The position numbers were made by a program, and so were the translations under genes. The notes under the pieces were generated by a model. It was not told the DNA's origin. It did not search any database and worked only from the letters and a program-made list of their open reading frames with translations. Below are positions 22,646 to 39,318 of a stretch of 64,000 bases of DNA, piece by piece (the first letter of the stretch is position 1; every line of letters starts with the position of its first letter). The DNA is from a virus: IMG/VR virus record IMGVR_UViG_3300045988_118131. One strand, given 5' to 3'.

Positions 22646-22854
22646 TTCTCAGTTTTTAATTTTGCTTTTAGTTTTATTTTGCACCCACATCCTTTTACAT
22701 AACCATCTAAAGGATGTATAGAGACATCTCCAGTTTGAGGATTGATATATAAACTATTGCTGCATATTCCTCCATTATTTGGAGAATATATGGGACAATT
22801 TTCACATATTCGTATTCTGGATTCTCATAGAGTTTGATTAATTCTTCCTTCCAT
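22615..22854 (-). CDS. Cys-rich small protein; read with TGA=Trp
   Basis: ATG 22854, TAA 22615, in-frame TGA at 22825 and 22627. Product MEGRINQTLWESRIRICENC..GCGCKIK..CPAGKW. Confidence 0.4.
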
Positions 22855-22973
22855 TTTTACTTATATTTATAATTACAGTTGTGGCATTTGTAAAAGTTAT
22901 TTGATAACATCAATGCGGATTATTCGGCATATGGTTTGTTCTATTAATTATTTATTGCCACTGTATGTAATTA

Positions 22974-24863
22974 TTAAAATTCTATTCTTTTTCTCTTGGA
23001 TGCCCTCTCTTCTTGTATAAGCTCTTTTCTGTATTGAGATAGCATTCTTTCTACCTCGTTCTTTAAGTATTCTACTTCATGTGTGGATACGTTTCCATCA
23101 TGATCAAAATATACAAGAATTAATTTCTTTATATTAAATTGAGGATTATTTTTCTTAATCATCCAAGCGTAGGTACTTAATTGTAGAGTGTAATGCATGA
23201 AATTACAATCCATTAAATTGTTTAGAGGAAACTTCATCATAGCATATTTTTTAGCAGCTGGATCGTATCCAGATTTCATTTTTAATTCCTTATTAGTGTT
23301 ATGAGTAACAATCATTGATTCTCCAAATAGGAAAGTATGAGATGGACTATCCACCTCTAAACACTGTGTAGCTATTGTATCAACTCTCTCTACAGAAACA
23401 ATATTTCTAAATGAATGTTTGTCTATCAATGGAAAATTAATATCCTGATTTCTTACTAGGAATGGATTTAATCCATTAGTCGAGAAACATACATCCCATC
23501 CTTTAAATATCTTTCCGTTACACCTTTTATCAACTTCAAATAAAGTAGCTTTAATGCCCAACGTACTAACTAATTTAATTAAATCCCTAGCTTGCCACTC
23601 CTGAGTCGTTCCCATAACAAATCTTTTTCTACCCTCATGGTAGTAGCCATCCGTATCCATTAAACCTCTTAGTAAGTCAAGCCTTTGTTGGAATGATGCT
23701 CTCATATATAAGTCAGGAATAAATTTGTTATTTAATAATTCTAGATGATTTAGTTCTTTTCTGATACCATATATGGTTCTCATCTCTGCATGGGCTTCAT
23801 CAGATAGATTATCACCGTATGTATATCCCCTATTTGATATTTCTTCCCACACTTTCGGATTTATATTGGTTAAAATACCACAAGATTTAGAACCGTCTCC
23901 CAACCAACATCCTAATACATAGGGGTCAATCGGCAAATCAATTTCTGGCAGATTTAGAGGTTTACTGTTAAGTATCTTAGGGATATTATAAGAAGTTCTA
24001 GGTTTCTCTATAAGCCACTTAGCAATTTCTTCTGTAGTCATAATTCTATCACTAAAGGTCTTATCTGGTCTTCTGAATGAAATTAACCATCTATGCTCGT
24101 GGTCTGCAACTATAGATTCCCCATTGTCAAATGTAATTTTATAACATGGATTATAATGTATATCTGACTTATGGATAACTTTTGTGATGTTACCATCCCT
24201 ATCAAATATTTCATCACCTTCTTTAATATCACCTATAGTAGTCCATCCTGTTTTAGTAGGAATTACTGTATCTAAAGGTAATCCTTTATAGTCGATAATA
24301 TAAATATCATTTCCGTCCTTGACTAATAAGTCTATTTGTCCTGCTAATCTAATGTGCCCATCTTCAGATACTCTAGAAATTAAATACTCAGGATATACTG
24401 CAGATTCTAAATCTAATGGAGTGTAGTTTTGCTTACAAACGAATTTTCCTCCCAATCCATAAGATTTTAGAGAATAACTAGAAGCTCCAGAGTAAAACTT
24501 TTTTTCCATAGCTGCATGAATTTTAGTTCCTCTTTCACAAGATTCTCTATTAGTCTTAGCCCATTCATCTAATATGTCTTGCTGGGTAGAATTAAAAGTA
24601 ACCTCGTCAATATCATATAATTCTAATACTGAGTTATCCCATTTCTTAGATTTCAATAATCTCGGCTTTTCCATTGCTGCAAATTTTTGAGAACCTATTA
24701 ACCTCTCTAGTGCTTTGTATTTACTCCAAAAATCTTGATCAAAAGGTTGCTCAAATCTACCTATTAAGGTAGTTACAGAAATAAACTTTTGACCCTCATC
24801 ATTCCAATATTGATGAAATTCATCATTATAATTTACATTACCATTTCTCTTATCAACTTGCAT
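22974..24863 (-). CDS. PD-(D/E)XK (RecB/lambda-exonuclease-type) nuclease interrupted by an intein
   Basis: 629-aa ORF. The exteins join as ..GQIDLLVKDGNDIYIIDYK|TNKELK.., which restores the D..(D/E)xK motif. Confidence 0.75.
   Translation of the reverse strand: MQVDKRNGNVNYNDEFHQYWNDEGQKFISVTTLIGRFEQPFDQDFWSKYKALERLIGSQKFAAMEKPRLLKSKKWDNSVLELYDIDEVTFNSTQQDILDEWAKTNRESCERGTKIHAAMEKKFYSGASSYSLKSYGLGGKFVCKQNYTPLDLESAVYPEYLISRVSEDGHIRLAGQIDLLVKDGNDIYIIDYKGLPLDTVIPTKTGWTTIGDIKEGDEIFDRDGNITKVIHKSDIHYNPCYKITFDNGESIVADHEHRWLISFRRPDKTFSDRIMTTEEIAKWLIEKPRTSYNIPKILNSKPLNLPEIDLPIDPYVLGCWLGDGSKSCGILTNINPKVWEEISNRGYTYGDNLSDEAHAEMRTIYGIRKELNHLELLNNKFIPDLYMRASFQQRLDLLRGLMDTDGYYHEGRKRFVMGTTQEWQARDLIKLVSTLGIKATLFEVDKRCNGKIFKGWDVCFSTNGLNPFLVRNQDINFPLIDKHSFRNIVSVERVDTIATQCLEVDSPSHTFLFGESMIVTHNTNKELKMKSGYDPAAKKYAMMKFPLNNLMDCNFMHYTLQLSTYAWMIKKNNPQFNIKKLILVYFDHDGNVSTHEVEYLKNEVERMLSQYRKELIQEERASKRKRIEF
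23298..24284 (-). mobile_element. Intein (329 aa) with LAGLIDADG homing endonuclease; class-3-like
   Basis: aa 194-522. N-terminus GLPLDTVIPT (Gly where Cys/Ser is usual). LAGLIDADG motifs LGCWLGDGSKS and LLRGLMDTDGYY. C-terminus MIVTHN followed by Thr+1. Confidence 0.7.
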
Positions 24864-24864
24864 A

Positions 24865-25500
24865 CTAGTTTTCCATTTGTTTTTTAACTTGGTTATAATC
24901 TAATAGTATTGCTAACCTTTGTATTCTCGGAGATACTGTTTTCATATAGTACCCTAGATTATATTGTGGTTTTGTTTTATATAAAACTATAACCATTCCA
25001 ACAGGGTCACTGACTCCTTCTATTGGATAAAAAGCTACAGCAGAAGCATTACATAATCTAATTTTTCTATATAATTTAGGAAAGGACTCTTTTAATTCGC
25101 CTATACTGTCCGCTCTTAAATACCTTAAATTATGTATTTTGATAAGCTCCTCTCCATAATTTATGTAGCTTAACTCCCTAAACTCTTCTCCCCACATAGG
25201 CTCATCATCTTTAAATTTTTCAGCTAAGAATGTTATATATTTATATGAGAAACCTTGAGAGCTGTGATTATTGTTGTGATAATTTAGCAATATTACATTA
25301 GTCGCGTCTGGATCACTTATAAGTATATACTGTATCTGTGTATTAATTGTAGGCGTTATACGTTCAGTATAACGTTCCGCTTCCATCTTCTCCAATCTCT
25401 CTTTACTAATTAACCTATTAACTACGTTAATGTTAGAAACATTAATGTTAAGTATAGCTAAAATTAGTAAAATAAGAAAGGCTCTATTCTCCTTACTCAT
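24865..25500 (-). CDS. Hypothetical membrane-anchored protein
   Basis: 211 aa with an N-terminal hydrophobic segment. TAG stop 1 nt before the next ATG. Confidence 0.5.
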   Translation of the reverse strand: MSKENRAFLILLILAILNINVSNINVVNRLISKERLEKMEAERYTERITPTINTQIQYILISDPDATNVILLNYHNNNHSSQGFSYKYITFLAEKFKDDEPMWGEEFRELSYINYGEELIKIHNLRYLRADSIGELKESFPKLYRKIRLCNASAVAFYPIEGVSDPVGMVIVLYKTKPQYNLGYYMKTVSPRIQRLAILLDYNQVKKQMEN

Positions 25501-25704
25501 TTGTAGAAAAAATTGAAGACTGTTTTTAAATCAATCTGCTAACATATTCACGCTATTATTTTTAAATGTATAACAATCAAACGATTTTATTTTTGGTTAT
25601 TAACATTATTCCATATTTTCGTGTCTAAGTAATTTTCATTTGTTCATGTGCAAAATTAGCACTAATTTCGTAGAGTAAAAAATGAAATATAAAATATTTT
25701 AGTT

Positions 25705-26013
25705 ATGAATTTAAACGAACAGTTATCTAAATTAGTCAAAGACAAATTCCGCGAGGAAATACAAAAACTACCATTGAGCAGTATTTCCTATTTAAAAAAT
25801 GGTGGAAAAACAGTCAGATTATCAAAAAAGGGAGGTAAAAATAAGATTCACATAAAGAAGGAAAATAGAGGTAAGTTTACTGCTTCTGCTAAGGCTGCAG
25901 GGCAGTCAGTACAAGAACATGCACGTAGTGTATTGAATAATCCAAATGCTACACCTCTACAAAAGAAGAGAGCAAACTTTGCACGTAATGCAGCTAAGTG
26001 GCATCATAAATAA
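25705..26013 (+). CDS. Basic hypothetical protein
   Basis: 102-aa ORF, Lys-rich, LKNGGK motif. Confidence 0.5.
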   Translation: MNLNEQLSKLVKDKFREEIQKLPLSSISYLKNGGKTVRLSKKGGKNKIHIKKENRGKFTASAKAAGQSVQEHARSVLNNPNATPLQKKRANFARNAAKWHHK

Positions 26014-26021
26014 GATTTATT

Positions 26022-27731
26022 ATGAGCGATAAAAATAAATTAGTAAGAAAAATATCAACTGATACTGTTATTCCTTACTTTCCTACTAGTGATAATCTAA
26101 TTAAAGACTTAAAATTAGATAGTATATATAGAAATTCTATCGCTGCTGCTTTTATGCCTCAGTATATAAATGAAAGTGGCGGAAACCCAGAAGAGTGAGT
26201 CAAAACTTCAATGTTTAGAATAGGAGGAAAATTTACTCCTAAGAAATCCCAATTAGTTAAAAATGCAGAAGAACTAAATTCTAAAAGAGATATGAGAAAG
26301 AAACTAATTAAAGGAACTAGTTGACCTAGTACTAAAAAGCGCATGATTAAAAAACAACAGGGAGGAACACTAGATGATGAATTTCTGAATTATGATAATG
26401 TAAATATTTCTGAAACACCTTTACCAGAACTGACCTTTGATACTTCTAATTTTAATCCTTACAATTATATTAGTGAGGAACCATCTAAAAGAGAAGTTCC
26501 GAATCAATCTTCAGAAGAGACTTCTCAGGAACCTAATATTCAAAAGGAAGAGAAGCCTGTTCTAGAAAAGACTGTAAAATCTCCTGACTTCGATCCTAAA
26601 TTAGGATTAATGGGAGAGTTTGTTAAAATAGCTACAGAAGAAGGCATTCCATTTAGGGTAACTAGTGGCTACAGACCTAATTCAATTACTTCAAACGGCT
26701 CTCGCAGTTGACATAGTAAAGGCTTAGCTTTGGATATAATTCCTAAAGAAGGAGTTAGTTGGGAAGTATTTAAGAACTCATTCAACAAAGCTCCTAAAAC
26801 TCTTAAATGAATAAGAGATAATAAGATGGGAATATTAGACGAAACAACTCCAGAAATGTTAGCTAGAACTGGAGGAACAGGAGCTCACTGGCATATAGGA
26901 AGAGATAAAATGGCTGTAGATTCATTCAGTAAAATGTTTCCTATAAGTAAAAATGGAGGAGTTTTAAAGGCTCAATGAGGAACTAAACTTACAGGAGTTT
27001 ATACAGTTAATCCTGGAGATAACTTGACCAAGATTTCTAATTCTTTAGAAATTCCTCAAGACAGCTTACTAAGTTATAATAATATTCCTAAGTCTAAAGC
27101 AAATGATCTAGCAATAGGACAAGAACTTCTGTGAAGAAAGGAGCCAGAATTTCTAGATAATGTAAAGAGATTTTTCTTTGAACCTAAGGAAGAATCAGAC
27201 AAATCAGTGTCTAGAAATAATATAATAGAAAAGAATGTATGACTTAGTAAAACTACTAAACCAGAAGTCAATCCTATTTATTCAACTAGATTTAAAGAAA
27301 AGAATTTTAGAAAGTTTGCCAATACTATGAAAACTATATATTCTGAAGTATTAGACGAATTAGGATTACCTAAGCATAATATATCTAATTTAGTTAGACA
27401 AGATGCGTTAGAAAGTACCTATGGAACTAGCCCTAGAGGTAATGGATACAACTTAGGAGGAATTAAAGTTTTTAATAATAAGGAAACTTTAGGAACTCGA
27501 CATTCTGATGGGTATTACTATAGAAATTTTAAAGACCTGAAAGATTATGCAAGATATAAAATTAAATTACTACATAATGATTACGGAGCCATAGAAGCTC
27601 CGGCAGAACAATTTATAGATGCGTTACACGGAAAGAATAAAAAGAAGAAGATATACAGTGCTGGAAAAGATGCTTATGAGAAATTCAGAAATATGAAGTC
27701 TCTTAATAAATATCTAGATGAATCCAATTAA
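26022..27731 (+). CDS. Three-domain peptidoglycan hydrolase (M15 zinc peptidase + LysM + glucosaminidase-like); read with TGA=Trp
   Basis: ATG 26022. Track ORFs 26343..26711 and 27327..27731 are in the same frame. Seven in-frame TGA, e.g. 26709. Motifs: S-W(TGA)-HSKGLALD (H-x6-D) and GAHWHIG (HxH) for M15; YTVNPGDNLTKIS..LAIGQEL for LysM; RQDALESTYGTS..YNLGGIK for glucosaminidase. Confidence 0.75.
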
Positions 27732-27776
27732 AGTTGGAATTCTTCTTTTAAATGGTTAAACTAATTTTGTACTAAA

Positions 27777-28040
27777 ATGTCATTTAAAGATTTTATTTGA
27801 GACACAGTATCAGAAGGTAAAAACCCTTCTAGTAAAAGAGTGGCTGGATGCTTAGGATGGTTAGTATGTTTATTAGCCTCTATAGTAGCTATATTTTATG
27901 TTATTCCCAGTCCTAATATAATTGAGATGTTATTTTGATCTAGCTGTGCACTACTAGGTATTGACTCAGTTGCAGGAGCTTTTAAACATAATCCATTTAA
28001 GAAAGATGCCAAAGGTGAAGTACGGAACGGAGGAGTATAG
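27777..28040 (+). CDS. Holin-like small membrane protein; read with TGA=Trp
   Basis: 87 aa with two in-frame TGA. Hydrophobic segments GCLGWLVCLLASIVAIFYVI and MLFWSSCALLGI. Lies directly after the hydrolase. TAG stop. Confidence 0.5.
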
Positions 28041-28818
28041 GAATGCATATAATAAAAGAAGTCTAGCCAATTACGATTTTAATTCTAAAACCTATAATTT
28101 AGCTAGACCTCTTCCTGATATTGTTGCTACTCCTAAAAATAATTTAGATTTGGGACAGGTAGTTAGAAATGGAACTTCAAAAATAGGTAAACCTATAGGT
28201 GTAGCTATTACTGAATTAGCAGCATTACATCCTGTAATAGGATTAGCTAAAGCTGGAGTAGATGCTAAACTAGCTGTTAATCAAAGAGATAAAATACTTA
28301 ATAGTCTAGCTGCATTACCAATTCCTGTAATTAGAAATCTTACAAAAGCTAGAAAGATTATTAGTCCTGTAACTAAAACTATGAAGAAAGTTGAACCAGG
28401 AGTTACCAGAATTTCGCTAAATAGTCCTAGTAAAGAATTGGGACATATAGACTTAAGTGATTCTTTTGAAAAGACTGCTGGATTTGATACCATCTATCCA
28501 GAGTATATCAAAGTTAATGAAAAAGGTAAGGGATTATCTAAAGCACTTTATGCTGCAGGTATAAAAGATATGAAAAAGCCTATAATAAGTGGAGAAGTAT
28601 TATTACAACCAGAAAAGACAGTTAAAACATATAAATACTTTGATGGACCAGTATTACCTCCTCTTATTATGGAAGAAGGGTATAATTATCCCAGAAAGAT
28701 TATGGTCAAACCAAAGAATCCTAATTTATATGAAGATACTATAAAAGAGTATCAAAATAAAACAGCTAGATATTCGGACAATCTATCAGAATTATGAAAA
28801 TTAGTGAGTAAGAAGTAA
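28006..28818 (+). CDS. Hypothetical protein; read with TGA=Trp
   Basis: ATG 28006 (MPKVKYG). TGA at 28795 is followed by 6 codons, then TAA. Confidence 0.5.
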
Positions 28819-29603
28819 TGAAACTAAATATAAGAAAATTTCAAAAAGGTGGAAGTAGTAGACTTCCTACATTTAGTCTACCAGAAATAAATATTTATCC
28901 CAATAATAAATGAGGAGATATTGCTAGAAAACAAGGACTAGAAACTGCTAGGAACTGGAGAAAAGTTAGAGAGGGAACAACAGCTGGAATTAATGAATTT
29001 GTTAACGACCCAAGAGCACAGTTTGTTCAAGCCTTATTACCCTTACCTGAAGGATTAGAATATCTTGGAATGGTAGGCAGAAAGGCAATAAAAAGTAAGG
29101 CAGCACAACTAGCTGCAAAACAACTAAATAGAAATATAGATAAAACTAAACTAATTCCTAAGTCACTTCCATCAAATGTAGGCTGAGCACCTACTCAAAG
29201 TGTTAAGGTTATCCACGATAAAAATAATTCAGAAGCCTTAAAATTATTTTTTCCTGAAAGATGAGATGTAATTAATGAAGGAGCTAACCCATTTGGTATT
29301 TGATTTCAAGGTAAGTGAGGATTGCCTAGAGAGGGAGTTAAAGCAGCTAAGGCAGCTAAAGCTAGAGCACTATTTGCTAATAGACCCTATAGAGTTTCTG
29401 GCACTTTAAAATTAGATAAACCTATACAAACTGTAGGTGAAGTTTCTAATAGAGCTGCTCTAACCAAATCAGCTGAGCAAATGGGGGCAGATGGAGTTAT
29501 ATTCAACAATGTTTACGATAATGGTTATTCCAATAATCAAGTTATATTTAGTTTTAAAGACTTAATAGATGGAATAACAACAAAAAAGGCGGCAGGTAAG
29601 TAA
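28818..29603 (+). CDS. Hypothetical virion/lysis-block protein; read with TGA=Trp
   Basis: ATG 28818, same frame as track ORF 29322..29603. Five in-frame TGA. RKFQKGGSS motif. Confidence 0.55.
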
Positions 29604-30730: not shown

Positions 30731-30756
30731 ATTAATTCATTTTTAATTTAAGATTG

Positions 30757-30842
30757 CGCACGCTATAGGATTCGAACCTATGATGAGGATACCTCCTGGT
30801 AGGTTAACAGCCTACTGCTTTCGTCCACTCAGCCAAACGTAC
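30757..30842 (-). tRNA. Type-II-bodied tRNA with anticodon GUU (Asn-type loop CUGUUAA), discriminator G
   Basis: Acceptor GTACGTT/AGCGTGC. D arm GCTGAGTGGACGAAAGC. Anticodon stem GTAGG/CCTAC. 17-nt variable arm with GAGG/CCTC stem. T arm ATAGG-TTCGAAT-CCTAT. Confidence 0.6.
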
Positions 30843-31039
30843 AATGATTTTATTTACCTAATTCCCATAATGGAATTACACCCTCACTATTGGTATAATT
30901 CCTGTTGGAGTATAATACATAGGTTTACTAAATGTTTGTATTATCCAACTTCCAGCTTTCTTTACAATTCTTTTTATTGTCTTCATAACTGTAAGAATTA
31001 AGTTAATAAATATGTTTATCTAATAGATAATTAATCTTG

Positions 31040-31111
31040 CGCTTCATGTAGGATTCGAACCCACGTATTAACACTTTAGAGATGTTCGCCTAGCCACTCG
31101 ACCAATGAAGC
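31040..31111 (-). tRNA. Amber suppressor tRNA, anticodon CUA
   Basis: Acceptor GCTTCAT/ATGAAGC. Anticodon stem AACAT/GTGTT with loop CTCTAAA. T arm GTGGG-TTCGAAT-CCTAC. Discriminator G. Confidence 0.65.
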
Positions 31112-31122: not shown

Positions 31123-31326
31123 TTACACTCCCATTGAAACTAATTCTAGTTTCTTGAATAAAGACCCGTCGTCAACAACAGCTATGGCAGTAGTCTTATT
31201 GTCTAAGTCTGGTTCTTTGAATATTGAGAAGTCCTTGCCAAGTAGGGATAATTTTTCTTTCTCGTGTTCTATATCTGCTGATAAATATATCAAATATTCA
31301 TTACTTCAATCCTTATGCTCTAGCAT
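31123..31326 (-). CDS. Small hypothetical protein; read with TGA=Trp
   Basis: ATG 31326, TAA 31123, in-frame TGA at 31306. The frame is open further upstream without an ATG. Confidence 0.3.
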
Positions 31327-31381
31327 ATATTGAGCAACTGCGTGTCCTCCTTGAACACATCCATATATAGGATTTAATTTT

Positions 31382-31717
31382 TTATCTATCAGCACGTATA
31401 GTCTTTTCATTTTCAATCAAGCTTTTTACTCTACGTGAAAAATATTCTTTCACATAATCTACTCCTAAGTAATTACCATAACCATTCCAACCTTGGTCTT
31501 TCTTATAATTAGACATAACTGTATTTATATATTCCTCCGCATCAACATTATGTTTAACGATATACCATGCAGTATTTAACGCAAATAAAATACAGCGGTT
31601 ATAATAAACTTCTGAGTTAGCTTGATTTCTAGTTTGATAATCTGCTGATTTTCTATTGGCTTTAGCCTTGATTTGTTTTTCTTCTAATTTTTTAATAGCT
31701 TCTAATAAAGTTTCCAT
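31382..31717 (-). CDS. Hypothetical protein
   Basis: 111-aa ORF. Confidence 0.5.
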   Translation of the reverse strand: METLLEAIKKLEEKQIKAKANRKSADYQTRNQANSEVYYNRCILFALNTAWYIVKHNVDAEEYINTVMSNYKKDQGWNGYGNYLGVDYVKEYFSRRVKSLIENEKTIRADR

Positions 31718-31845
31718 AATAATTAATTTTTTAAGTTTAAAAATAGTATCTTACAATTCTCTGAATGATACTTTATTATGGAGAAGCTCTTCCAAAATTA
31801 ATCTATAAAAAAGTGTTCATAATTAATAATTTTAAATTTAGGTAG

Positions 31846-31917
31846 ATCCCGATGTCGGACTCGAACCGACGTTTCAAGATTACAAATCTAGCGTTCTAGC
31901 CTCTGAACTAATTGGGA
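31846..31917 (-). tRNA. tRNA-Thr (UGU)
   Basis: D arm GTTC-AGAGGCTA-GAAC. Anticodon loop TTTGTAA. T arm GTCGG-TTCGAGT-CCGAC. One mismatch each in the acceptor and anticodon stems. Confidence 0.6.
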
Positions 31918-31922
31918 ATATG

Positions 31923-32017
31923 CACGGAAGTCAGGGGTCGAACCCGAATAATCCCTTTTGGAAGGGGACCAACGCTTTTGAAGAGCGTTTCTGTTTGCCG
32001 TACAGATAAGCTTCCGT
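31923..32017 (-). tRNA. Opal suppressor tRNA, anticodon UCA, with long variable arm (95 nt)
   Basis: Acceptor ACGGAAG/CTTCCGT. D arm TCTG-TACGGCAAA-CAGA. Anticodon stem ACGCT/AGCGT with loop CTTCAAA. Variable arm about 23 nt (CCCTT-CCAA-AAGGG). T arm TCGGG-TTCGACC-CCTGA. Discriminator G. Confidence 0.7.
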
Positions 32018-33362: not shown

Positions 33363-33591
33363 TCTTTCTATTACTTCCTCTGTTATAGAAAACTCTGCAA
33401 TATTAGGTCTTAGTATTTTGTAGAAAATTTAAAATTTGAGCTTTATGAATATTTTAGATAATTAAAATCTCGTTTATGACCCCCCTTCGGGATTCGACAT
33501 ACTCTTAACTCCCCCCACAGGGATTGAGAAAAAAGTAAAAACATTATTGATTTCTCAAACAGATTTACTAACAATTAAAACAAAAAAGATT

Positions 33592-34101
33592 ATGTTTACA
33601 ATTGAGGAAACAAAGAAAAGCAAAGGTTTCAAATCAGTAAAAGAAAACATTGCAGCTATCGAAGCGGTAAGAAAAGAACGCTTTGACCAAAATTTGGCTT
33701 TAGCCGGATTTAACGGGAAAAACATTGTATTGACCGGAAATTTTTCTGAAAGAAAATTTAAGCCGGCAGGCGGTTCGGAACGTTCTTACATTGTTTTGGA
33801 AGCGGTTTACTTTGATGATAAACCAGAGAACGGAAAAATTGGAACGCTCGCACTATCAGCACTGAAAGCAAGTGTAAAACCGTCAATTGACGAAAATTTA
33901 CAGTCCGTCGTATCTGATTTTTCGGAAATTTCCGAACGTGAAGCACTTAACAAACTTTTGGAAGATAAAACCTACCTAAAGTGTGAAAGTACATTGACCG
34001 TATTAAAGCCTGAATTTTATCAGGAAAACGGACAAAACAAAGTTCGGTATGATGCCGAAAAAACAAAGAAAGGATACAAGTATAGCGTTGCTACATTGTA
34101 A
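33592..34101 (+). CDS. Hypothetical protein with foreign codon usage
   Basis: ATG at 33592 inside track ORF 33547..34101. Frequent GCG/CCG/CGG/ACG codons that are rare elsewhere in the window. Confidence 0.55.
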   Translation: MFTIEETKKSKGFKSVKENIAAIEAVRKERFDQNLALAGFNGKNIVLTGNFSERKFKPAGGSERSYIVLEAVYFDDKPENGKIGTLALSALKASVKPSIDENLQSVVSDFSEISEREALNKLLEDKTYLKCESTLTVLKPEFYQENGQNKVRYDAEKTKKGYKYSVATL

Positions 34102-34108
34102 ATCTTTC

Positions 34109-34134
34109 AACGGGTGCAAACATTTGCACCCGTT
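34109..34134 (+). terminator. Perfect GC-containing hairpin after 33592..34101
   Basis: AACGGGTGCAAA-CA-TTTGCACCCGTT. Confidence 0.6.
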
Positions 34135-34181
34135 TACATTCAATTAAACAGATTAAAAACAACTAAAAAAGATTAAAAATC

Positions 34182-34268
34182 ATGAAAACAAACAGAAAGT
34201 ACGTTACAGTTAATGGAGTCGTTTACACATACGAAGAGTATTTGGAAATGTTAAAGAATAGAGATTAA
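34182..34268 (+). CDS. Small hypothetical protein (28 aa)
   Basis: MKTNRKYVTVNGVVYTYEEYLEMLKNRD, followed by a terminator. Confidence 0.3.
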   Translation: MKTNRKYVTVNGVVYTYEEYLEMLKNRD

Positions 34269-34283
34269 TCTCTATTCTTTTTT
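34255..34283 (+). terminator. Rho-independent terminator
   Basis: AGAATAGAGA-TTAA-TCTCTATTCT followed by T5. Confidence 0.75.
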
Positions 34284-34323
34284 GCTTACGTAGCATTTAC
34301 TAACTTCGTAGAATAATTATAAT

Positions 34324-34551
34324 ATGAAAATATTCGTAGTAAAAGGTGTAGCCAAGGGTGATAGAGTATATTACGAAGGACTTAATTTTAAGATCCATGC
34401 AGGAGATTGGCTTCCTAACTATGAATGTTATTTTCAGGTGAAGAAAGACGATCTTGGGAAATATACAATATTGAAGTGTATTCCTGTAGATGCCGAGAAT
34501 AGTTGGAATAATGCTATCTCTGTAGATAAGGATGATGAAGAGTGTTGTTGA
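34324..34551 (+). CDS. Hypothetical protein
   Basis: 75-aa ORF. TGA stop with a back-up TAA 3 codons later. Confidence 0.5.
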   Translation: MKIFVVKGVAKGDRVYYEGLNFKIHAGDWLPNYECYFQVKKDDLGKYTILKCIPVDAENSWNNAISVDKDDEECC

Positions 34552-34808
34552 ATGGGATAAATGAGCGTGGTTCCACTATCATTCTCTCTCCACCTCCAGA
34601 AATTTTTTCCATTTCCCCAATTCTCCGAGAAAGAGCACTTTTAGCATTTCAATTTTGAAAACTCTACTCAACATATCTGAACTTGTTTTAGAGCTAAATT
34701 TGAGTTTTCACAAAAGTCTCTTTCCAAAATATATATTTTCTAAGCCCATACAATCTTAAATTTAAGTTTATATATAACAAACAAAAAGACAGCCTAGGAG
34801 TCTATAAA

Positions 34809-34866
34809 ATATACACTGATGAGACTAGGACGAAACTATCCTCAATTGAGGGTAGTCTGTTTGAAC
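34809..34866 (+). ncRNA. Hammerhead-ribozyme-like motif (type I topology), tentative
   Basis: CUGAUGAG (34816-34823) - 8 nt - CGAAAC, then a 9-bp stem III ACUAUCCUC-AAUU-GAGGGUAGU, then C. The predicted cut is after GUC at 34857. Stems I and II are weak. Confidence 0.3.
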
Positions 34867-35082
34867 TTTTTTTACTGTAAGACCATAATGGGTACGCTCT
34901 GAGACTATGTAGTTGTTGTGAAACAATTCAAAGTATAGTAGCACAGGAAGGGTCTAGATGTTTACAATTTTCATTTTTGGTAGCTTCGGCTACCACTTTC
35001 AAGACGAGAGCAACCGTTACGTGGTTTGAAAGATAAGTAAGTATATACTGAAACTAATAGCTCTTTTTCGTTTAACAAATTT

Positions 35083-35116
35083 AAAACCTCACACTGTAAA
35101 GGCAAAGTGTATAAAG
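35083..35116 (+). promoter_or_regulatory. Conserved early-gene upstream motif, copy 1 (T7/T3/K11-like promoter candidate)
   Basis: AAAACCTCACACTGTAAAGGCAAAGTGTATAAAG ends 3 nt before ATG 35119. Confidence 0.5.
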
Positions 35117-35118
35117 TT

Positions 35119-35430
35119 ATGTCAAGATTCAACGTACAAAGAGAACAATTATCTGGATATATTCAGAATGCAATTATGTGTATTGAACTTGGAACTAATT
35201 TAAAGTTTACAAGAGCTGAAGATTGGACAAGTACAAATCAAGGTCATGCATTACACTTTGCAGGAAATTTATACAAAGGGGAGCAAACTTGGGATGATAT
35301 TATAAGGTTCATCAAAATGCAGTTCGCACATAATCCAGAAACTAAATGTATTGATGAAGACACTTCAGATTTTGAGGAATTGGCTCTCGGTAGCAATTTT
35401 GGTGAATGGATAGTTTACATTACTATTTAA
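35119..35430 (+). CDS. Hypothetical protein
   Basis: ATG inside track ORF 35107..35430. Confidence 0.55.
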   Translation: MSRFNVQREQLSGYIQNAIMCIELGTNLKFTRAEDWTSTNQGHALHFAGNLYKGEQTWDDIIRFIKMQFAHNPETKCIDEDTSDFEELALGSNFGEWIVYITI

Positions 35431-35586
35431 ATATGGTGACTAAAAAACTCAATAACTTTCCAAGACATTGAGGACACCAGTTTCTTATCTGAATATTGCA
35501 ACGCATAGTTTGGTAATACTTTATGTGAGTAAAGCCCATTAATGTAATATTTGCAGATAAGTTTTAGGTGTAAAATGCAAAAATTT

Positions 35587-35620
35587 AAAGCCTCACACTA
35601 TATAGGTAAAGTGTAGATAA
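35587..35620 (+). promoter_or_regulatory. Conserved early-gene upstream motif, copy 2
   Basis: AAAGCCTCACACTATATAGGTAAAGTGTAGATAA directly before ATG 35622. Confidence 0.5.
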
Positions 35621-35621
35621 A

Positions 35622-36209
35622 ATGGAACAGAATTATTCAAACGCTCCTGCAAAACGTTTTACTCAAAACAGAATGTTTAAAAACTTGTCTGAAGAAGAGT
35701 TAACACTTCTAGGATTAGGTGGTCCTGAACCAGAAGAGTATATAAAAACGTTACCAGAGAGTGTCAATAAAACAATATTAGTTGATACAAATCCTTCTAG
35801 AGATTGGGTTGAACACACTACGTTGGTTGAAGGATATGCAAAACACAGAACAGAAGTTAATTTTGTAGACTGTGATTTTTGTAGTACTATCTGGTCTAAC
35901 ATTGAAGATTTCAAGCACATCTATACTGAGATGAAGAAGCAAGATAGAACTCAATATCTTGCCATCACAGTAAGTCTAAGACAAGTAGGGATGCGCAGAA
36001 CTTTGGAATATCTAGCTCAGTTTGAAGAGTTTGGAATAACTGAAGAAGATTGCAAAGAGATTCAATCTCATAGAGTGGCTTCATCAAAAGATCTCAAACA
36101 TGAACGTAGTCATGTTCACAGATTGTGTAAAGGAGATAAAGCACTAAACATATATTCTTACAGTGACACAGGAACTCCAATGTTAGCAGGAATCATAAAA
36201 ATCAATTAA
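35622..36209 (+). CDS. Hypothetical protein
   Basis: 195-aa ORF. Confidence 0.6.
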   Translation: MEQNYSNAPAKRFTQNRMFKNLSEEELTLLGLGGPEPEEYIKTLPESVNKTILVDTNPSRDWVEHTTLVEGYAKHRTEVNFVDCDFCSTIWSNIEDFKHIYTEMKKQDRTQYLAITVSLRQVGMRRTLEYLAQFEEFGITEEDCKEIQSHRVASSKDLKHERSHVHRLCKGDKALNIYSYSDTGTPMLAGIIKIN

Positions 36210-36343
36210 TATGACACATACAATCTACAAAAACATCAAGTTAACAGTAAGTGCTCCAGATCTTCCTATGTTAGCAATAGGGATGGATTCCACTCAGTTT
36301 GGAATTGCATTAATATGGATTTCATTTATTATTAGTTGGAAAT

Positions 36344-36376
36344 AAAAACCTCACACTGTATAGGTAAGTGTATAAC
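36344..36376 (+). promoter_or_regulatory. Conserved early-gene upstream motif, copy 3
   Basis: AAAAACCTCACACTGTATAGGTAAGTGTATAAC before ATG 36380. Confidence 0.5.
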
Positions 36377-36379
36377 ATC

Positions 36380-36622
36380 ATGAGACAATATTTCTATTTA
36401 GTAGCTCACACGGTAGTAGGAGATGATTTACATATTGATAAAATCTTTTTCCAGGAACATGATGCCATTCGTTGGGGTAAAGTCTTAGCAACAAAAAATC
36501 CAGACTATTCTGTAGGTTTGTATAGACAGGAGATTGCAAGGACAGCAACGGTGAGGTTTGTAAAGACCTTAACCGCTTACAAGTCATCTGGGTCGGATAA
36601 TGATATTGATCAATGTAGATAA
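36380..36622 (+). CDS. Hypothetical protein
   Basis: ATG inside track ORF 36368..36622. Confidence 0.55.
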   Translation: MRQYFYLVAHTVVGDDLHIDKIFFQEHDAIRWGKVLATKNPDYSVGLYRQEIARTATVRFVKTLTAYKSSGSDNDIDQCR

Positions 36623-36625
36623 GAT

Positions 36626-36817
36626 ATGGCAGAAGAAACTATAGTAAGAGAGAACTTGATGACAAGAGAAGGGTATTCTCCCTATTGTCTCCAATGTTCG
36701 GTGATGCCTAGAACATTTTTCAATGGAGAGCAATTTCAATGTCCGCATTGTGGATGGATTTCACAATTTCCAGAAGATTTCATAGAGAGGTACAAAAACA
36801 AGTGGAAGATAAAATAA
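36626..36817 (+). CDS. Zinc-ribbon protein
   Basis: CLQC..(n)..CPHC. Confidence 0.5.
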   Translation: MAEETIVRENLMTREGYSPYCLQCSVMPRTFFNGEQFQCPHCGWISQFPEDFIERYKNKWKIK

Positions 36818-36823
36818 CGAAAT

Positions 36824-37018
36824 ATGGCAACGGTAATTCAAAAGAGATTGAGAAAATTAATAGAAGATTCTATGGTTTCAAATGCAACACATACTATGTA
36901 TGCTAATGGAACTAAGTATGTAGTGTATCATGGAAGAATTGAAGCGAAAATAACTCCAGAAGGAATGATTACCTCTAGAGATATATTGTTTCAAGAATCT
37001 CTAGCAGTCTTTAAATAA
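36824..37018 (+). CDS. Hypothetical protein
   Basis: 64-aa ORF. Confidence 0.5.
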   Translation: MATVIQKRLRKLIEDSMVSNATHTMYANGTKYVVYHGRIEAKITPEGMITSRDILFQESLAVFK

Positions 37019-37024
37019 ATTTAG

Positions 37025-37076
37025 ACCATCTAAAGGATAACTCCGAATTAAATTGGAGATTCTTCTTTTAGATGGT
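37025..37076. repeat. Palindromic intergenic repeat, full copy
   Basis: ACCATCTAAAGGA...TCTTCTTTTAGATGGT. Confidence 0.7.
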
Positions 37077-37097
37077 TAACTTTTAAAATTACACAAA

Positions 37098-37532
37098 ATG
37101 TCAAAGAAAGAGATTTTTACTAAAAATTTAGTTACCCCTAAGGAAGCTCTATCAAAGTGTTTTCGAATTGGAGCATTAGTTTATTTCAAAGATGGATCAT
37201 ATGTTGTGAAGAAGTCAGACCAGTCTGATTTTGCAATGACTGTTGGATGCTTGCTCTCGAAGGAAGCAGATGATTTGTTTCAAATAATTGATGTTAACAA
37301 GCCTTATCCTACAGCCCACTTAAGCATAGAATATGCTGTTCCAATTAATAATATAAAAGTTAGGAATATTAACACTGGTACAGTTTATTATTGTAGCAAC
37401 ATAAACATTGTAAACTGTAGCGGATATGCAGTTGAAGACTTCAATGACAATGAGGTTATGTATAACAATACGTTAACTACATTGAAAACTATCCTCAAAG
37501 CATCTAAATTCGGAAATTGTCAACTATTATAA
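37098..37532 (+). CDS. Hypothetical protein
   Basis: 144-aa ORF. Confidence 0.6.
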   Translation: MSKKEIFTKNLVTPKEALSKCFRIGALVYFKDGSYVVKKSDQSDFAMTVGCLLSKEADDLFQIIDVNKPYPTAHLSIEYAVPINNIKVRNINTGTVYYCSNINIVNCSGYAVEDFNDNEVMYNNTLTTLKTILKASKFGNCQLL

Positions 37533-37545
37533 AAATTTAAATTGT

Positions 37546-38238
37546 ATGGAAGAGAAAGTAGATTACAGCAAAGACATTCAAGTAACAATTGACCATAATC
37601 AAACGTTTCCAGCTAAATTGCTAGCAAATGACCCAGAATTTGGAGTAATTGTTGGGTACACAAATGAGAATGGAGAAAAGTGGATTCACAGTGAGCTTTA
37701 TCATGATTATGAGTCGATGAATCGAAATTGTTTTGTGGAGATTTCTAATGTTCCAGAAATTGAAGAGGGACCAATTGTAAATGTAGGCAACGTAGTTAGT
37801 ACCAAAGAGAAAACGCTTCTGATTATTGAAATAAATCCAGATTATATTACTGGAATAGATATTCAAGGGAAGGGTTGGGCATTGCTGAGAAAAGACATTT
37901 TAAAGCTGTTAACTGGTGACGAGGCTGCTCAGTTTTGCATATATGTAGCTGCTAACACTGGAACAGTATTACTTGCAAATGGTTCTCTTTTTGATCTAAT
38001 TGGAGTATGGTGGTATAAATGTGTCATTGAAGGACTTACTTGGGTATTTCAATTTGAGGAAATTAAGACAACTGGTGATGTAATAGCTTCTCTAGTTATA
38101 AATGTAGAATCAGGAATTTGCGTTCCCGAATCTATATTACAGGAATGTCCATTTGCTAACTTGCACCATATATCCAATGCAGAAAATCTTGAGGTTATCA
38201 CGAGTGATGAAGTTCTTAAAATTATGTTAAGAAAATGA
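37546..38238 (+). CDS. Hypothetical protein
   Basis: 230-aa ORF. Its TGA stop overlaps the next start (ATGA). Confidence 0.6.
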   Translation: MEEKVDYSKDIQVTIDHNQTFPAKLLANDPEFGVIVGYTNENGEKWIHSELYHDYESMNRNCFVEISNVPEIEEGPIVNVGNVVSTKEKTLLIIEINPDYITGIDIQGKGWALLRKDILKLLTGDEAAQFCIYVAANTGTVLLANGSLFDLIGVWWYKCVIEGLTWVFQFEEIKTTGDVIASLVINVESGICVPESILQECPFANLHHISNAENLEVITSDEVLKIMLRK

Positions 38239-39137
38239 TTACTGCTGAACAAATCCATAATGAACTTTGGGATCTGGGTCTTAACAGACTTGCAGATCTC
38301 AAAAGTACAGTTGTTGACAACAAGGCTATAGAAACTAAAAGAAATTTAGAAAGTCTAGGATTTACACAGTCTGAAACTTACAAAAATCTAAGTAAGAAAG
38401 TCAAGAAGATGGAGGAAAAGGTAGTATATGACTTTTTCAATCAAAGATTTGACGGAGTTGTGTTTGTTCCTACAAATGATTTTGTAAATCTTCTTTTAAA
38501 GTATGACTTGTATTGCTCCACGTTTGAAGATTTCTTAGGAGAAATTCCTGAGGAAAACATAGACGAAATACTTGACGCTAAGAACACTCTGACGGAAATT
38601 AAGGATATAAATGTATATTCTAATAGGTATAAAAATCTAGTTTCTGAAATTAGCGATAGTTATATAGGAGAGTGGTGTAATGAAGCCCTATTGTCTTCAA
38701 TAGATGAAGAACCCTATCAAGAATGGAAATGGAACGGTCGTCCAGACTACTACGAAGCCTTAGAAATTATCGAAAGTGGATGGAATATTATCCTATCCTA
38801 TAGTTTCGAACTTAGTCGCAATACTCCAAAATCCTTTTATGATAGCTGCGATACGATAAGAATCAGATGGGGATTTAAAGATAGTATCAATAAATTTACT
38901 CATTTTCCTATTACTGAATTAGGTATTAATCCTAGGGCAGGACTATCAGGTAAAGCATTGAGTTCTGATACTTTACTCATAGCAGCTCCTAGAGATGAAA
39001 TAAAACACATTGTTGAACTAGAGGAAGTTCCTAAGGTATTAATTAAAGACCCTTTTGTATTTCAAGTTCTTGGAAACGATGTAGTTATATTCTCTAAATG
39101 GGGAGTAGAAAGTAAAGACGAATTGTTTGAAAAATAA
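38235..39137 (+). CDS. Hypothetical protein
   Basis: 300-aa ORF. Confidence 0.6.
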   Translation: MITAEQIHNELWDLGLNRLADLKSTVVDNKAIETKRNLESLGFTQSETYKNLSKKVKKMEEKVVYDFFNQRFDGVVFVPTNDFVNLLLKYDLYCSTFEDFLGEIPEENIDEILDAKNTLTEIKDINVYSNRYKNLVSEISDSYIGEWCNEALLSSIDEEPYQEWKWNGRPDYYEALEIIESGWNIILSYSFELSRNTPKSFYDSCDTIRIRWGFKDSINKFTHFPITELGINPRAGLSGKALSSDTLLIAAPRDEIKHIVELEEVPKVLIKDPFVFQVLGNDVVIFSKWGVESKDELFEK

Positions 39138-39155
39138 TAAAACTAGTAAATTGAC

Positions 39156-39317
39156 ATGCGTAGCACAAAAACAACAAAAGAGAAATTAATTGAAAGAATT
39201 AATGCATTAAAAGAACTTCCTAGAACTGATAATGTTCAATCTATATTAAATAGATTAGAACAAGAACTGTCAGATCTAGGAGACCATTCTTTTGAAAGAG
39301 AATGTTACTCCTTTTAG
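39156..39317 (+). CDS. Small hypothetical protein (53 aa)
   Basis: ATG 39156. TAG stop 1 nt before the next ATG. Confidence 0.3.
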   Translation: MRSTKTTKEKLIERINALKELPRTDNVQSILNRLEQELSDLGDHSFERECYSF

Positions 39318-39318
39318 T

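What the first reader, a model, noticed from the sequence alone, without database searches (positions are those of the whole stretch)
31040..31111. A second suppressor: tRNA(CUA) for TAG, although TAG behaves as a stop in this window
A 72-nt cloverleaf with anticodon loop CUCUAAA (anticodon CUA) lies 0.8 kb from the UCA suppressor. I found no gene here that needs TAG read-through. TAG also terminates tightly packed genes one nucleotide before the next ATG (2770, 24865, 39315). Possible explanations: TAG-containing genes lie outside the window; the tRNA is a relic of a different code state; or it acts on host messages. A phage carrying both opal and amber suppressors would be unusual and would bear on how code switching evolves.
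Basis: partly seen in the sequence, partly recalled or inferred. Interest (0 to 1): 0.65.

Follow-up and report, generated by a model that had tools for sequence, protein, structure and literature searches.

The report
Unused amber-suppressor tRNA in gut phage
The window carries a real, conserved tRNA that should read the TAG stop codon, but this gut phage never uses TAG inside its genes; the same puzzle was published in 2025 for the near-identical phage Lera.

Summary
A 72-73 nt tRNA with anticodon CUA lies at 31039-31111 on the minus strand (ARAGORN; Rfam tRNA 51.6 bits). It sits 0.8 kb from a tRNA(UCA). Six distinct versions from related strains keep the CUA anticodon. They differ by five compensatory base-pair changes, so the tRNA is maintained by selection and is not decaying.

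The window comes from a ~175 kb Zeta crAss-like phage. Its gene order and gene lengths match phage Lera (PV725988). I walked a composite of the rest of the genome. Late genes have 93 in-frame TGA (aligned to Trp in relatives) and no in-frame TAG. TAG ends 18 of 172 genes, including the major capsid protein and the holin. This refutes the idea that TAG-containing genes lie outside the window.

Sister lineages do recode TAG to Gln, but they use unrelated CUA tRNAs. A simple relic is therefore unlikely.

Babkin et al. 2025 (PMC12386605) already report both suppressors in Lera and ct1yV3, with only opal used. They also report other Zeta phages with unused CTA suppressors. The function is unknown. 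The leading idea is action on host termination.

Verdict: real, already known, moderately interesting.

The parts
31039..31111 (-). tRNA with anticodon CUA (amber-suppressor type). The acceptor stem is GCUUCAU/AUGAAGC, the D stem has 3 bp, the anticodon loop is CUCUAAA, and the discriminator is G (A in most relatives).
   Evidence: ARAGORN. Rfam tRNA 51.6 bits. Covariation across 6 distinct homologues: 98.3% of cells paired, 5 pairs with changes on both sides, anticodon invariant. Corresponds to the Lera tRNA at 176,426..176,497.
31922..32017 (-). tRNA with anticodon UCA (opal suppressor), 96 nt, with a long variable arm. It is the presumed decoder of the in-frame TGA codons.
   Evidence: ARAGORN. 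No Rfam tRNA match was listed; it scores 34 bits to tRNA-Sec, below the gathering score of 47. TGA aligns to Trp in relatives.
31845..31917 (-). tRNA-Thr(UGU), 4 nt downstream of tRNA(UCA) in the same module.
30756..30842 (-). tRNA-Asn(GUU), 87 nt, with an insertion in the variable region. It is the last tRNA of the quartet.
31123..31410 (-). 95-aa hydrolase gene with one in-frame TGA. It ends 11 nt before tRNA(CUA). Lera annotates the homologue as aminoacyl-tRNA hydrolase.
   Evidence: ORFs. PHROG 3668 'hydrolase', E = 1.4e-8. No Pfam hit. Lera Table S1, entry 256.
31382..31717 (-). 111-aa ORF of unknown function between tRNA-Thr and the hydrolase gene. I used it to retrieve diverged strains.
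1..29603 (.). Late block. Structural and packaging genes are on the minus strand (1-25545). The lysis cassette is on the plus strand (25705-29603). TGA is read as sense here and TAG is a stop.
   Evidence: In-frame TGA in long ORFs and no in-frame TAG. Portal 15143-17329. Endolysin, holin and TerL by correspondence with Lera Table S1.
33547..64000 (+). Early/replication block with the main tRNA array. It uses the standard code: TGA is a stop, for example the ATGA overlaps at 38235-38238 and 54933-54936.
2770..2772 (-). TAG stop of the 1148-aa baseplate-like gene, in a TAGTATG junction with the next gene.
24865..24867 (-). TAG stop of a 226-aa late gene, in a TAGTATG junction. It is TAA in two related lineages.
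28038..28040 (+). TAG stop of the holin gene. The codon is TAA in four lineages and a Gln codon in L038.
   Evidence: Holin by correspondence with Lera Table S1.
39315..39317 (+). TAG stop of a 53-codon early ORF, in a TAGTATG junction.

Best explanation
SHOWN. This is a genuine tRNA gene with anticodon CUA that selection maintains. It sits in a four-tRNA module (UCA, Thr, CUA, Asn) on the minus strand, next to the lysis cassette. The phage is a ~175 kb Zeta crAss-like phage of the Lera/ct1yV3 type. The phage reads TGA as Trp in its late genes. It uses TAG only as a terminator, so the tRNA is not needed to decode any phage ORF of appreciable length.

INFERRED. The tRNA probably lies in one minus-strand run of genes and tRNAs with the opal suppressor, and it probably works as an amber suppressor in the infected cell. 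Its benefit most likely comes from read-through of UAG on host messages, which would weaken the host or its defence proteins. The phage itself would be largely insulated. About 80% of its genes end in TAA, and its TAG-terminated genes reach another in-frame stop after 0-41 codons, without any conserved extension.

The amino acid it carries is unknown. By analogy with E. coli amber suppressors, Gln or Lys would be the default; this rests on my own knowledge, not on a test here.
For: - The tRNA is real.
- It is maintained: 11 homologues give 6 distinct sequences, all with CUA, five pairs changed on both sides, 98.3% of cells paired, and the observed pairing, cells changed on both sides and covariation score each reached by 0 of 500 shuffles. 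The strains involved have diverged to 66-78% identity in the neighbouring protein.
- The loop CUCUAAA has U33 and the A36-A37-A38 run typical of readers of U-starting codons (the last point rests on my own knowledge).
- There is no sense TAG in the composite genome. Late genes comprise 52 genes and 24,893 codons, with 93 in-frame TGA and none extended through TAG.
- Stop codons: late genes 42 TAA and 10 TAG; early genes 93 TAA, 19 TGA and 8 TAG.
- TAG stops interchange with TAA among lineages, and the downstream peptides are not conserved.
- Published agreement: Lera and ct1yV3 have both suppressors and use only opal; ctE7s22 and about 11 clade-8 genomes carry CTA without recoding; the host-weakening or anti-defence hypothesis is proposed there and by Yutin et al..
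Against: - There are no expression, aminoacylation or read-through data.
- TAG is not avoided in late genes. It ends 10 of 52 late genes against 8 of 120 early genes (Fisher p = 0.027). These include the major capsid protein, a second capsid protein and the holin. That is unexpected if suppression were strong while late genes are translated.
- I found no enrichment of poor-suppression contexts or tandem stops after TAG relative to TAA.
- The host-directed step is pure inference.
- The discriminator base varies between G and A among strains, so the tRNA's identity is unclear.
Confidence: 0.4

Rival explanations
1. Stand-by or incipient recoding. The suppressor buffers TAG nonsense mutations, and this is the first step towards a TAG reassignment that has not yet accumulated sense TAG codons.
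For: Yutin et al. and Borges et al. propose that suppressor acquisition precedes recoding. The family changes code often: TAG, TGA and standard-code lineages share a syntenic structural module. TAG aligns with a Gln codon of relatives at the last codons of the second capsid protein and the holin. One strain has TAG in place of Tyr codon 74 of a 92-aa early protein, with the rest of the ORF intact.
Against: Lineages diverged to about 66-78% protein identity keep the tRNA yet have gained no internal TAG. Babkin et al. make the same argument across much deeper divergence, for ctE7s22 and clade 8. The few TAG/Gln cases are C-terminal and are equally explained by harmless C-to-T nonsense changes.
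Confidence: 0.2
2. Relic of a TAG-to-Gln ancestor. The lineage once used code 15, switched to TGA-to-Trp, and the amber suppressor is a leftover.
For: Relatives with 51-57% identity in the marker protein are heavily TAG-recoded; for example, there are 46 TAG codons in the portal gene, and they align to Gln. Some carry a CUA tRNA 7-8.6 kb upstream of the same marker gene.
Against: Those CUA tRNAs are of different types. L031/L037 are 75% identical to the window's own tRNA-Gln(UUG). L030 has a Gln-like acceptor stem. The window type is only 62-70% identical to either, which is about background level. No flanking genes are shared. Compensatory substitutions show continued selection. According to Babkin et al., the closest unrecoded relative, ctE7s22, already has CTA, and the opal system arose later.
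Confidence: 0.1
3. Service to other genomes. The tRNA lets the phage express TAG-bearing modules acquired by recombination from code-15 relatives, or it interacts with co-infecting TAG-recoded Zeta phages in the same gut hosts.
For: Code-4, code-15 and standard-code members of one family share gene order and the human gut habitat. Borges et al. suggest that suppressors could sense or affect co-infecting phages.
Against: No TAG-bearing mosaic segment was found in the composite genome or in about 30 loci of this lineage. There is no co-infection evidence.
Confidence: 0.1
4. Non-decoding role. The tRNA-shaped RNA would serve as a processing signal, a decoy for a host tRNA-targeting defence, a primer or a regulator, and the CUA anticodon would be incidental.
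For: It lies 11 nt after an ORF and within a dense tRNA/ORF run. Other strains carry a tmRNA-like element beside it.
Against: The anticodon CUA and the whole acceptor stem and D arm are invariant, while the stems covary. That is the pattern expected of a decoding, aminoacylated tRNA.
Confidence: 0.1
5. TAG-containing genes exist elsewhere in the genome.
For: Only ORFs of roughly 70-130 codons or more were examined. About 12 kb of the composite comes from a different strain, and 1-13.5 kb and 34-65 kb of the reference contig are represented by the window itself.
Against: No TAA-delimited long ORF gains coding length through TAG anywhere in the composite genome. The one same-frame pair split by TAG is a 62-aa membrane ORF followed by a separate gene with its own ATG two codons later. 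Lera shows no amber suppression.
Confidence: 0.03

Closest known systems
tRNA-SUP-CTA of Zeta crAss-like phages Lera (PV725988) and ct1yV3, proposed genus Echekvirus (Babkin et al. 2025, PMC12386605)
   Same: The genomic context matches. In Lera Table S1, a 72-nt tRNA at 176,426..176,497 (-) lies between a 273-bp TGA-containing aminoacyl-tRNA hydrolase gene and an 86-nt tRNA. tRNAs of 72 and 95 nt lie upstream, and ORFs of 519, 237, 204 and 198 bp lie downstream, as in the window. Both phages carry both suppressors, use only opal, have a DGR with Avd, have GC of about 32-33% and have genomes of 175-180 kb.
   Different: The Lera sequence itself is not held in the collections, so nucleotide identity could not be measured. 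The window strain has 23 tRNAs plus a tmRNA against 26 tRNAs in Lera. It also shows indels relative to the IMG/VR relative. The paper says TAG is rare as a stop and always closely followed by another stop. Here TAG ends 18 of 172 genes, and the next stop lies 0-41 codons away.
Unused CTA suppressors in other Zeta crAss-like phages (ctE7s22; clade 8, about 11 genomes), Babkin et al. 2025, and the suppressor/recoding mismatch noted by Yutin et al. 2021
   Same: A CUA-anticodon tRNA is present without any TAG recoding, and it is kept across diverged genomes.
   Different: Those genomes use the standard code throughout. Here the unused amber suppressor coexists with an opal suppressor that is in use.
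Gln-type amber suppressors of TAG-recoded (code 15) crAss-like phages
   Same: Same anticodon and same loop sequence CUCUAAA. They occur in relatives of the same family, upstream of the same structural module.
   Different: In those phages TAG is a frequent sense codon aligned to Gln, and the tRNA resembles tRNA-Gln: 75% identity to the window's tRNA-Gln, or a U1-A72/G2-C71/G3-C70 acceptor stem. The window's tRNA has G1-C72, C2-G71 and U3-A70, and serves no sense TAG.
[quoted passage not shown] 2021/2022)
   Same: Suppressor tRNA genes lie directly beside a recoded lysis cassette, with standard-code early genes elsewhere.
   Different: No release factor or aminoacyl-tRNA synthetase was seen in the module. 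It contains a second suppressor for a codon that is not recoded.
Bacterial tRNA-Cys(GCA)
   Same: The D arm GGUCGAGUGGCUAG combined with the T arm GGGUUCGAAUCC matched only tRNA-Cys genes (8 of 8) in 185,579 species genomes.
   Different: The anticodon is CUA rather than GCA. The discriminator is G or A rather than U73. The acceptor stem is unrelated. The resemblance may reflect only a shared short-D-loop architecture.

Membership tests
tRNA (Rfam RF00005) | The covariance-model score exceeds the curated gathering threshold over the full model. | tested here: met
   51.6 bits against 29, model positions 1-71 of 71.
tRNA (Rfam RF00005) | Cloverleaf helices are supported by covariation among homologues. 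| tested here: met
   There are 20 pairs and 98.3% of cells are paired. Five pairs changed on both sides. When the 3' partners are slid by 1-3 columns, pairing drops to 27-48%.
tRNA (Rfam RF00005) | The RNA is transcribed, processed, given CCA (not encoded: GC/AC follows the stem) and aminoacylated. | not testable with these tools
   This needs RNA and acylation assays. Lera is reported to encode a CCA-adding enzyme.
Amber suppressor tRNA serving a TAG-recoded (code 15) phage genome | The anticodon CUA sits in a 7-nt loop with U33. | tested here: met
   The loop is CUCUAAA. CUA is invariant in 11 homologues.
Amber suppressor tRNA serving a TAG-recoded (code 15) phage genome | In-frame TAG codons occur in the phage's own genes. 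| tested here: not met
   None was found in the window or in the composite ~175 kb genome. Relatives L029-L032, L036 and L037 have many.
Amber suppressor tRNA serving a TAG-recoded (code 15) phage genome | The tRNA body is tRNA-Gln-like. | tested here: not met
   It is 58% identical to the phage's tRNA-Gln(UUG). The acceptor stem is G1-C72/C2-G71/U3-A70. Isotype-specific models were not available.
   The related contigs are about 175-178 kb. The lengths of about 20 consecutive features around the tRNA module, the ferritin gene and the portal gene match Lera Table S1.
Zeta crAss-like phages, Lera/ct1yV3 group (proposed Echekvirus) | TCA and CTA suppressors are both present, only opal is used, and the DGR includes Avd. 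| tested here: met
Zeta crAss-like phages, Lera/ct1yV3 group (proposed Echekvirus) | At least 70% intergenomic similarity to PV725988. | not testable with these tools
   The record is not in the held collections.
tRNA-Pyl (ARAGORN's label) | Atypical pylT architecture without the canonical G18G19 and T-loop. This is recalled from my own knowledge, not taken from a tool. | tested here: not met
   The D loop AGUGGCUAG contains GG, and the T arm GGGUUCGAAUCC is canonical. The general tRNA model fits fully. ARAGORN gave the label 'Pyl' to every CUA-anticodon tRNA in these scans.
tRNA-Cys | GCA anticodon and U73 discriminator. | tested here: not met
   The anticodon is CUA and the discriminator is G or A.

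The most novel reading that the evidence does not exclude
The amber suppressor is a selectively maintained weapon or counter-defence rather than a decoding tool. It would be expressed with the opal suppressor and would force read-through of UAG-terminated host messages. The phage would tolerate it because its genes mostly end in TAA and its TAG-ended genes only gain short, unconserved tails. A variant reading is that it gives low-level, regulated read-through at the recurring TAGTATG stop-start junctions. That would tune translational coupling of late genes.
Probability: 0.3. Interest if true: 0.7.

Novelty: already known. Interest (0 to 1): 0.35.

Why it matters
Phages that switch the genetic code during infection are a live topic. 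A suppressor tRNA that is conserved but serves no codon in the phage's own genes suggests that suppressors can have another use. They might sabotage the host or its defences, or act as a long-lived pre-adaptation for code change. This lineage is very common in human gut assemblies: one of its proteins is indexed in 1,782 blocks of the assembly collection. It carries a used and an unused suppressor side by side in one module, which makes it a good system for testing these ideas. The observation itself is not new, because Babkin et al. 2025 describe it for Lera and ct1yV3. This analysis adds three things: covariation evidence that the tRNA is maintained, the finding that CUA tRNAs in the family have at least three unrelated origins, and the finding that TAG is a common terminator of late genes.

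Tried and rejected
1. Megablast and blastn of the window and of the tRNA against INPHARED phages gave only tiny hits or none. tblastn found only distant relatives. MT835470.1 turned out to use the standard code and to have no tRNAs.

2. One IMG/VR scan was wasted on a pattern with a miscounted run of N, and one look-up on wrong ORF coordinates.

3. A codon-usage log-odds score to detect coding potential downstream of TAG was too noisy, because antisense frames also score positive. I relied on TAA-delimited ORF listings instead.

4. I tested whether TAG stops in late genes sit in poor-suppression contexts (TAG-T) or are followed by tandem stops more often than TAA stops. Neither was significant.

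5. I tested for conserved read-through extensions after the TAG stops of MCP, the second capsid protein, the holin and others. None was found, and TAG alternates with TAA among lineages.

6. I searched about 30 loci of the lineage for polymorphic in-frame TAG codons. The hits were frameshift artefacts or spurious reference ORFs, apart from one Tyr-to-TAG variant in strain L002 and C-terminal cases.

7. Amino-acid identity could not be assigned. There is no close match to any tRNA in the window, and the tRNA-Cys-like D arm comes without Cys identity elements.

Only PHROG 3668 'hydrolase' matched.

9. I considered a link to the DGR, in which suppressors would rescue nonsense codons made by adenine mutagenesis. 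I did not pursue it, because Babkin's Table 1 shows unused CTA suppressors mostly in genomes without a DGR.

10. Correction: the marker I used to collect relatives (window 22974-24863; PHROG 'terminase large subunit'/exonuclease) corresponds to 'exonuclease V' in Lera. The TerL of the Lera annotation is window 17558-19885. This does not affect the conclusions.

Full report

Yes. ARAGORN calls a 73-nt tRNA with anticodon CTA at 31039-31111 on the minus strand. Rfam's general tRNA model matches 31040-31111 (-) over all 71 model positions at 51.6 bits. The gathering score is 29, and E = 3.6e-8 for the whole 64-kb window on both strands.

Read on the minus strand, the sequence is GCUUCAUUGGUCGAGUGGCUAGGCGAACAUCUCUAAAGUGUUAAUACGUGGGUUCGAAUCCUACAUGAAGCG. 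It has these parts:
- a perfect 7-bp acceptor stem
- a 3-bp D stem
- a 5-bp anticodon stem
- the loop CUCUAAA
- a 5-nt variable loop
- a canonical T arm

ARAGORN's label 'Pyl' is the one it gave to every CUA-anticodon tRNA in these scans. The tRNA(UCA) lies 811 nt away at 31922-32017 (-). tRNA-Thr(UGU) is directly after it, and a tRNA-Asn(GUU) is at 30756-30842.

**2. Coding in the window**

TAA-delimited reading frames show that the left 29.6 kb needs TGA read as sense. This block holds portal, TerL, tail and baseplate genes on the minus strand, and a lysis cassette on the plus strand. For example, there are 10 TGA codons in the 1148-aa gene at 2770-6216 and 7 in the gene at 26022-27731.

From 33.5 kb onwards, genes have no in-frame TGA and sometimes end in TGA. 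No long ORF contains an internal TAG.

In alignments with relatives that use other codes, TGA positions align mainly with Trp (145 W; next are 35 F and 30 Y). TAG positions of TAG-recoded relatives align mainly with Gln (540 Q).

**3. What the genome is**

Proteins of the window occur on human-gut contigs of about 172-178 kb, and they are extremely common: one is indexed in 1,782 blocks. An IMG/VR contig of 175,639 bp carries the identical tRNA.

A literature search then identified the group. Babkin et al. 2025 (PMC12386605) describe the Zeta crAss-like phage Lera: PV725988, 179,624 bp, 26 tRNAs, predicted host Parabacteroides. Its annotation table reproduces the window's layout feature by feature:
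- Around the tRNA module on the minus strand, the order is ORFs of 198, 204 (ferredoxin-thioredoxin reductase), 237 and 519 bp; an 86-nt tRNA; a 72-nt tRNA; a 273-bp TGA-containing 'aminoacyl-tRNA hydrolase'; a 336-bp ORF; then tRNAs of 72 and 95 nt.
- The portal gene is 2187 bp.
- The ferritin gene is 675 bp, with matching neighbours.

The DGR with Avd just left of the window is also a stated hallmark of Lera and ct1yV3. The Lera record is not in the held collections, so nucleotide identity was not measured.

**4. Does TAG code for anything elsewhere in the genome?**

I walked the IMG/VR contig outward from both window ends. The queries were chimeric: a peptide from the left end joined to a peptide from the right end. 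They gave contig positions 64,991-115,280 and 127,479-175,639. A 99%-related ENA contig spans the remaining 12 kb.

In every piece, late genes on the structural strand contain TGA, including ORFs of about 1,500 to over 3,000 codons. No TAA-delimited ORF of 130 codons or more gains length by reading TAG. The only same-frame pair split by TAG is a 62-aa membrane ORF followed two codons later by the ATG of a separate gene. No further tRNAs lie outside the window.

I made simple gene calls (ORFs of 70 aa or more, on the correct strand):

| Block | Genes | Codons | In-frame TGA | TAA stops | TGA stops | TAG stops |
|---|---|---|---|---|---|---|
| Late | 52 | 24,893 | 93 | 42 | 0 | 10 |
| Early | 120 | 22,981 | 0 | 93 | 19 | 8 |

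TAG is therefore a normal terminator, and it is more frequent in late genes (p = 0.027). The share of non-TAA stops is about the same in both blocks. TAG-terminated late genes include the major capsid protein, a second capsid protein, a baseplate protein, a tail protein and the holin, by correspondence with Lera.

Caveats: the genome is a composite of three closely related strains, short ORFs were not assessed, and gene starts are approximate.

**5. Is the tRNA maintained?**

I used the neighbouring 111-aa protein to reach diverged strains, down to 66% identity. Together with the IMG/VR relatives, this gave 11 homologous tRNAs and 6 distinct sequences. All sit in the same UCA-Thr-ORF-ORF-CUA-Asn arrangement.

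The anticodon, the acceptor stem (apart from one U-A to U-G change) and the D arm (apart from a G/A change at one D-stem position) are invariant. The anticodon stem and T stem carry five pairs changed on both sides: A-U to G-C, C-G to U-A, A-U to G-C, G-C to A-U, and U-A to C-G. Overall, 98.3% of cells are paired. None of 500 shuffles reached the observed pairing, the number of cells changed on both sides, or the covariation score. When the 3' partners are slid, pairing falls to 27-48%. This is the signature of a functional tRNA and not of a decaying relic.

**6. Family context**

Loci collected with a conserved 629-aa marker share the structural-module gene order. PHROGs calls this marker TerL-like/exonuclease, and Lera annotates it as 'exonuclease V'. 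The loci differ in code:

| Identity to the window's marker | Code |
|---|---|
| 78-100% | TGA recoded, both suppressors present |
| 67% | Heavily TGA recoded |
| 51-57% | Heavily TAG recoded (up to 46 TAG in the portal gene) or standard code |

Three TAG-recoded relatives carry a CUA tRNA upstream of the module, but these are unrelated to the window's tRNA. L031 and L037 are 75% identical to the window's own tRNA-Gln(UUG). L030 has a Gln-like U1-A72/G2-C71/G3-C70 acceptor stem. The window type is 62-70% identical to these, which is about background level. CUA tRNAs therefore arose at least three times in this family.

The window type's D arm plus T arm matches only tRNA-Cys genes in 185,579 species genomes (8 of 8). 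However, it lacks U73 and the GCA anticodon. Its amino-acid identity remains open.

**7. What is already known**

Yutin et al. 2021 (PMC7886860) noted two things. Branches of the Zeta group use TAG, TGA or the standard code. Suppressor presence does not match recoding perfectly. They suggested incipient code change, or an anti-defence role through host read-through.

Babkin et al. 2025 report the following:
- Lera and ct1yV3 carry tRNA-SUP-TCA and tRNA-SUP-CTA and use only opal.
- No amber suppression is seen.
- The closest relative, ctE7s22, has CTA and no recoding.
- Clade 8 keeps CTA without recoding.
- ctkor1 has both suppressors and uses amber.
- The unused suppressors may weaken the host or counter its defence.

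The finding is therefore a rediscovery of a published and still unexplained feature. My data differ from the paper on one point. TAG is not rare here (18 of 172 stops), and the next in-frame stop is 0-41 codons away rather than always immediately after.

**8. Tests of mechanism that were possible**

- If the suppressor were strong during late translation, TAG stops in late genes might be avoided, placed in poor contexts or backed by tandem stops. None of these holds statistically.
- If read-through products were functional, the extensions should be conserved. They are not, and TAG alternates with TAA among lineages. In two C-terminal cases it alternates with a Gln codon.
- In-frame TAG polymorphisms in about 30 related loci were essentially absent. 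The exceptions are one Tyr-to-TAG change in a small early protein and the C-terminal cases.

These results fit a suppressor that the phage tolerates and does not exploit for its own ORFs. They neither prove nor exclude a host-directed role.

**9. Verdict**

The tRNA is real and conserved, and the phage's own genes do not need it. The feature is already described for this very phage group, so novelty is low. The open functional question keeps it moderately interesting.

Noticed in passing
window 31922-32017 (-): The opal suppressor tRNA(UCA) is 96 nt, with a long variable arm and an extended D stem. No Rfam tRNA match was listed for it. It scores 34 bits to tRNA-Sec, below the gathering score of 47. 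Nevertheless, TGA aligns with Trp in homologues. Its acceptor end (A1-U72, G73) resembles the phage's own tRNA-Trp.
   Followed up: partly
window 34786-34862 (+): A RAGATH-1 hammerhead ribozyme match at 88.4 bits (gathering 56.3), in an intergenic gap at the start of the early block.
   Followed up: no
window 49806-50345 (+); L011 3353-3628, L098 4881-5156: A phage-encoded tmRNA match (82 bits) spans 540 nt for a 374-position model, which implies a large insertion. Other strains have a 276-nt ARAGORN 'tmRNA' (tag AERTNTSFSIAA) inserted between tRNA(CUA) and tRNA-Asn. This element is absent from the window.
   Followed up: no
window 30756-30842 (-): tRNA-Asn(GUU) is 87 nt because of a ~13-nt insertion in the variable region, which is unusual for Asn. 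The L011 and L038 lineages have a normal version of 73-75 nt.
   Followed up: no
window 61485-61558 (+): A tRNA-like gene (Rfam 42.9 bits) for which ARAGORN reports a two-base anticodon 'tt', apparently from a 6-nt anticodon loop. It could be a pseudo-tRNA or a frameshift-type tRNA.
   Followed up: no
window 32305-32360 and 42466-42515; single arms near 1921, 21541, 27756, 40356, 49460, 53454: A repeated hairpin motif, RACCATTTAAAAG...CTTTTAAATGGTY, lies mostly just after gene ends. It may be a phage-specific terminator or processing signal.
   Followed up: partly
window 31123-31410 (-): A 95-aa hydrolase (PHROG 3668; 'aminoacyl-tRNA hydrolase' in Lera) contains an in-frame TGA and ends 11 nt before tRNA(CUA). 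A tRNA-recycling enzyme that is itself made only after opal suppression sits directly beside the unused amber suppressor.
   Followed up: partly
window 2766-2772, 24861-24867, 39315-39321; two more elsewhere in the genome (IMG/VR contig pieces): The same heptamer, TAGTATG (stop, one base, start), recurs at five gene junctions. This suggests termination-reinitiation coupling built on TAG stops.
   Followed up: partly
L002 about 12298-12576 (right flank of the window, strain SRR31853281): One strain has TAG in place of Tyr codon 74 of a 92-aa early membrane protein, with the remaining 18 codons intact. This is a lone in-frame TAG polymorphism.
   Followed up: partly
L008 13109-15269 (just left of window position 1): A diversity-generating retroelement (bAvd plus a reverse transcriptase with 3 in-frame TGA) lies next to the tail-fibre gene that runs into the window start.
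   Followed up: no
L027, L029, L030, L031, L037: homologues of window 17558-19885 (TerL of the Lera annotation): In several relatives this gene is split into 2-3 collinear pieces separated by about 250-nt or longer gaps. This is consistent with the intron and intein load reported for Zeta crAss-like phages.
   Followed up: no
window 32807-33428 (-): A NUMOD4/HNH homing-endonuclease remnant is shorter here than the 951-bp gene found in strains L095 and L097 and in Lera. This points to mobile-element turnover beside the tRNA module.
   Followed up: no
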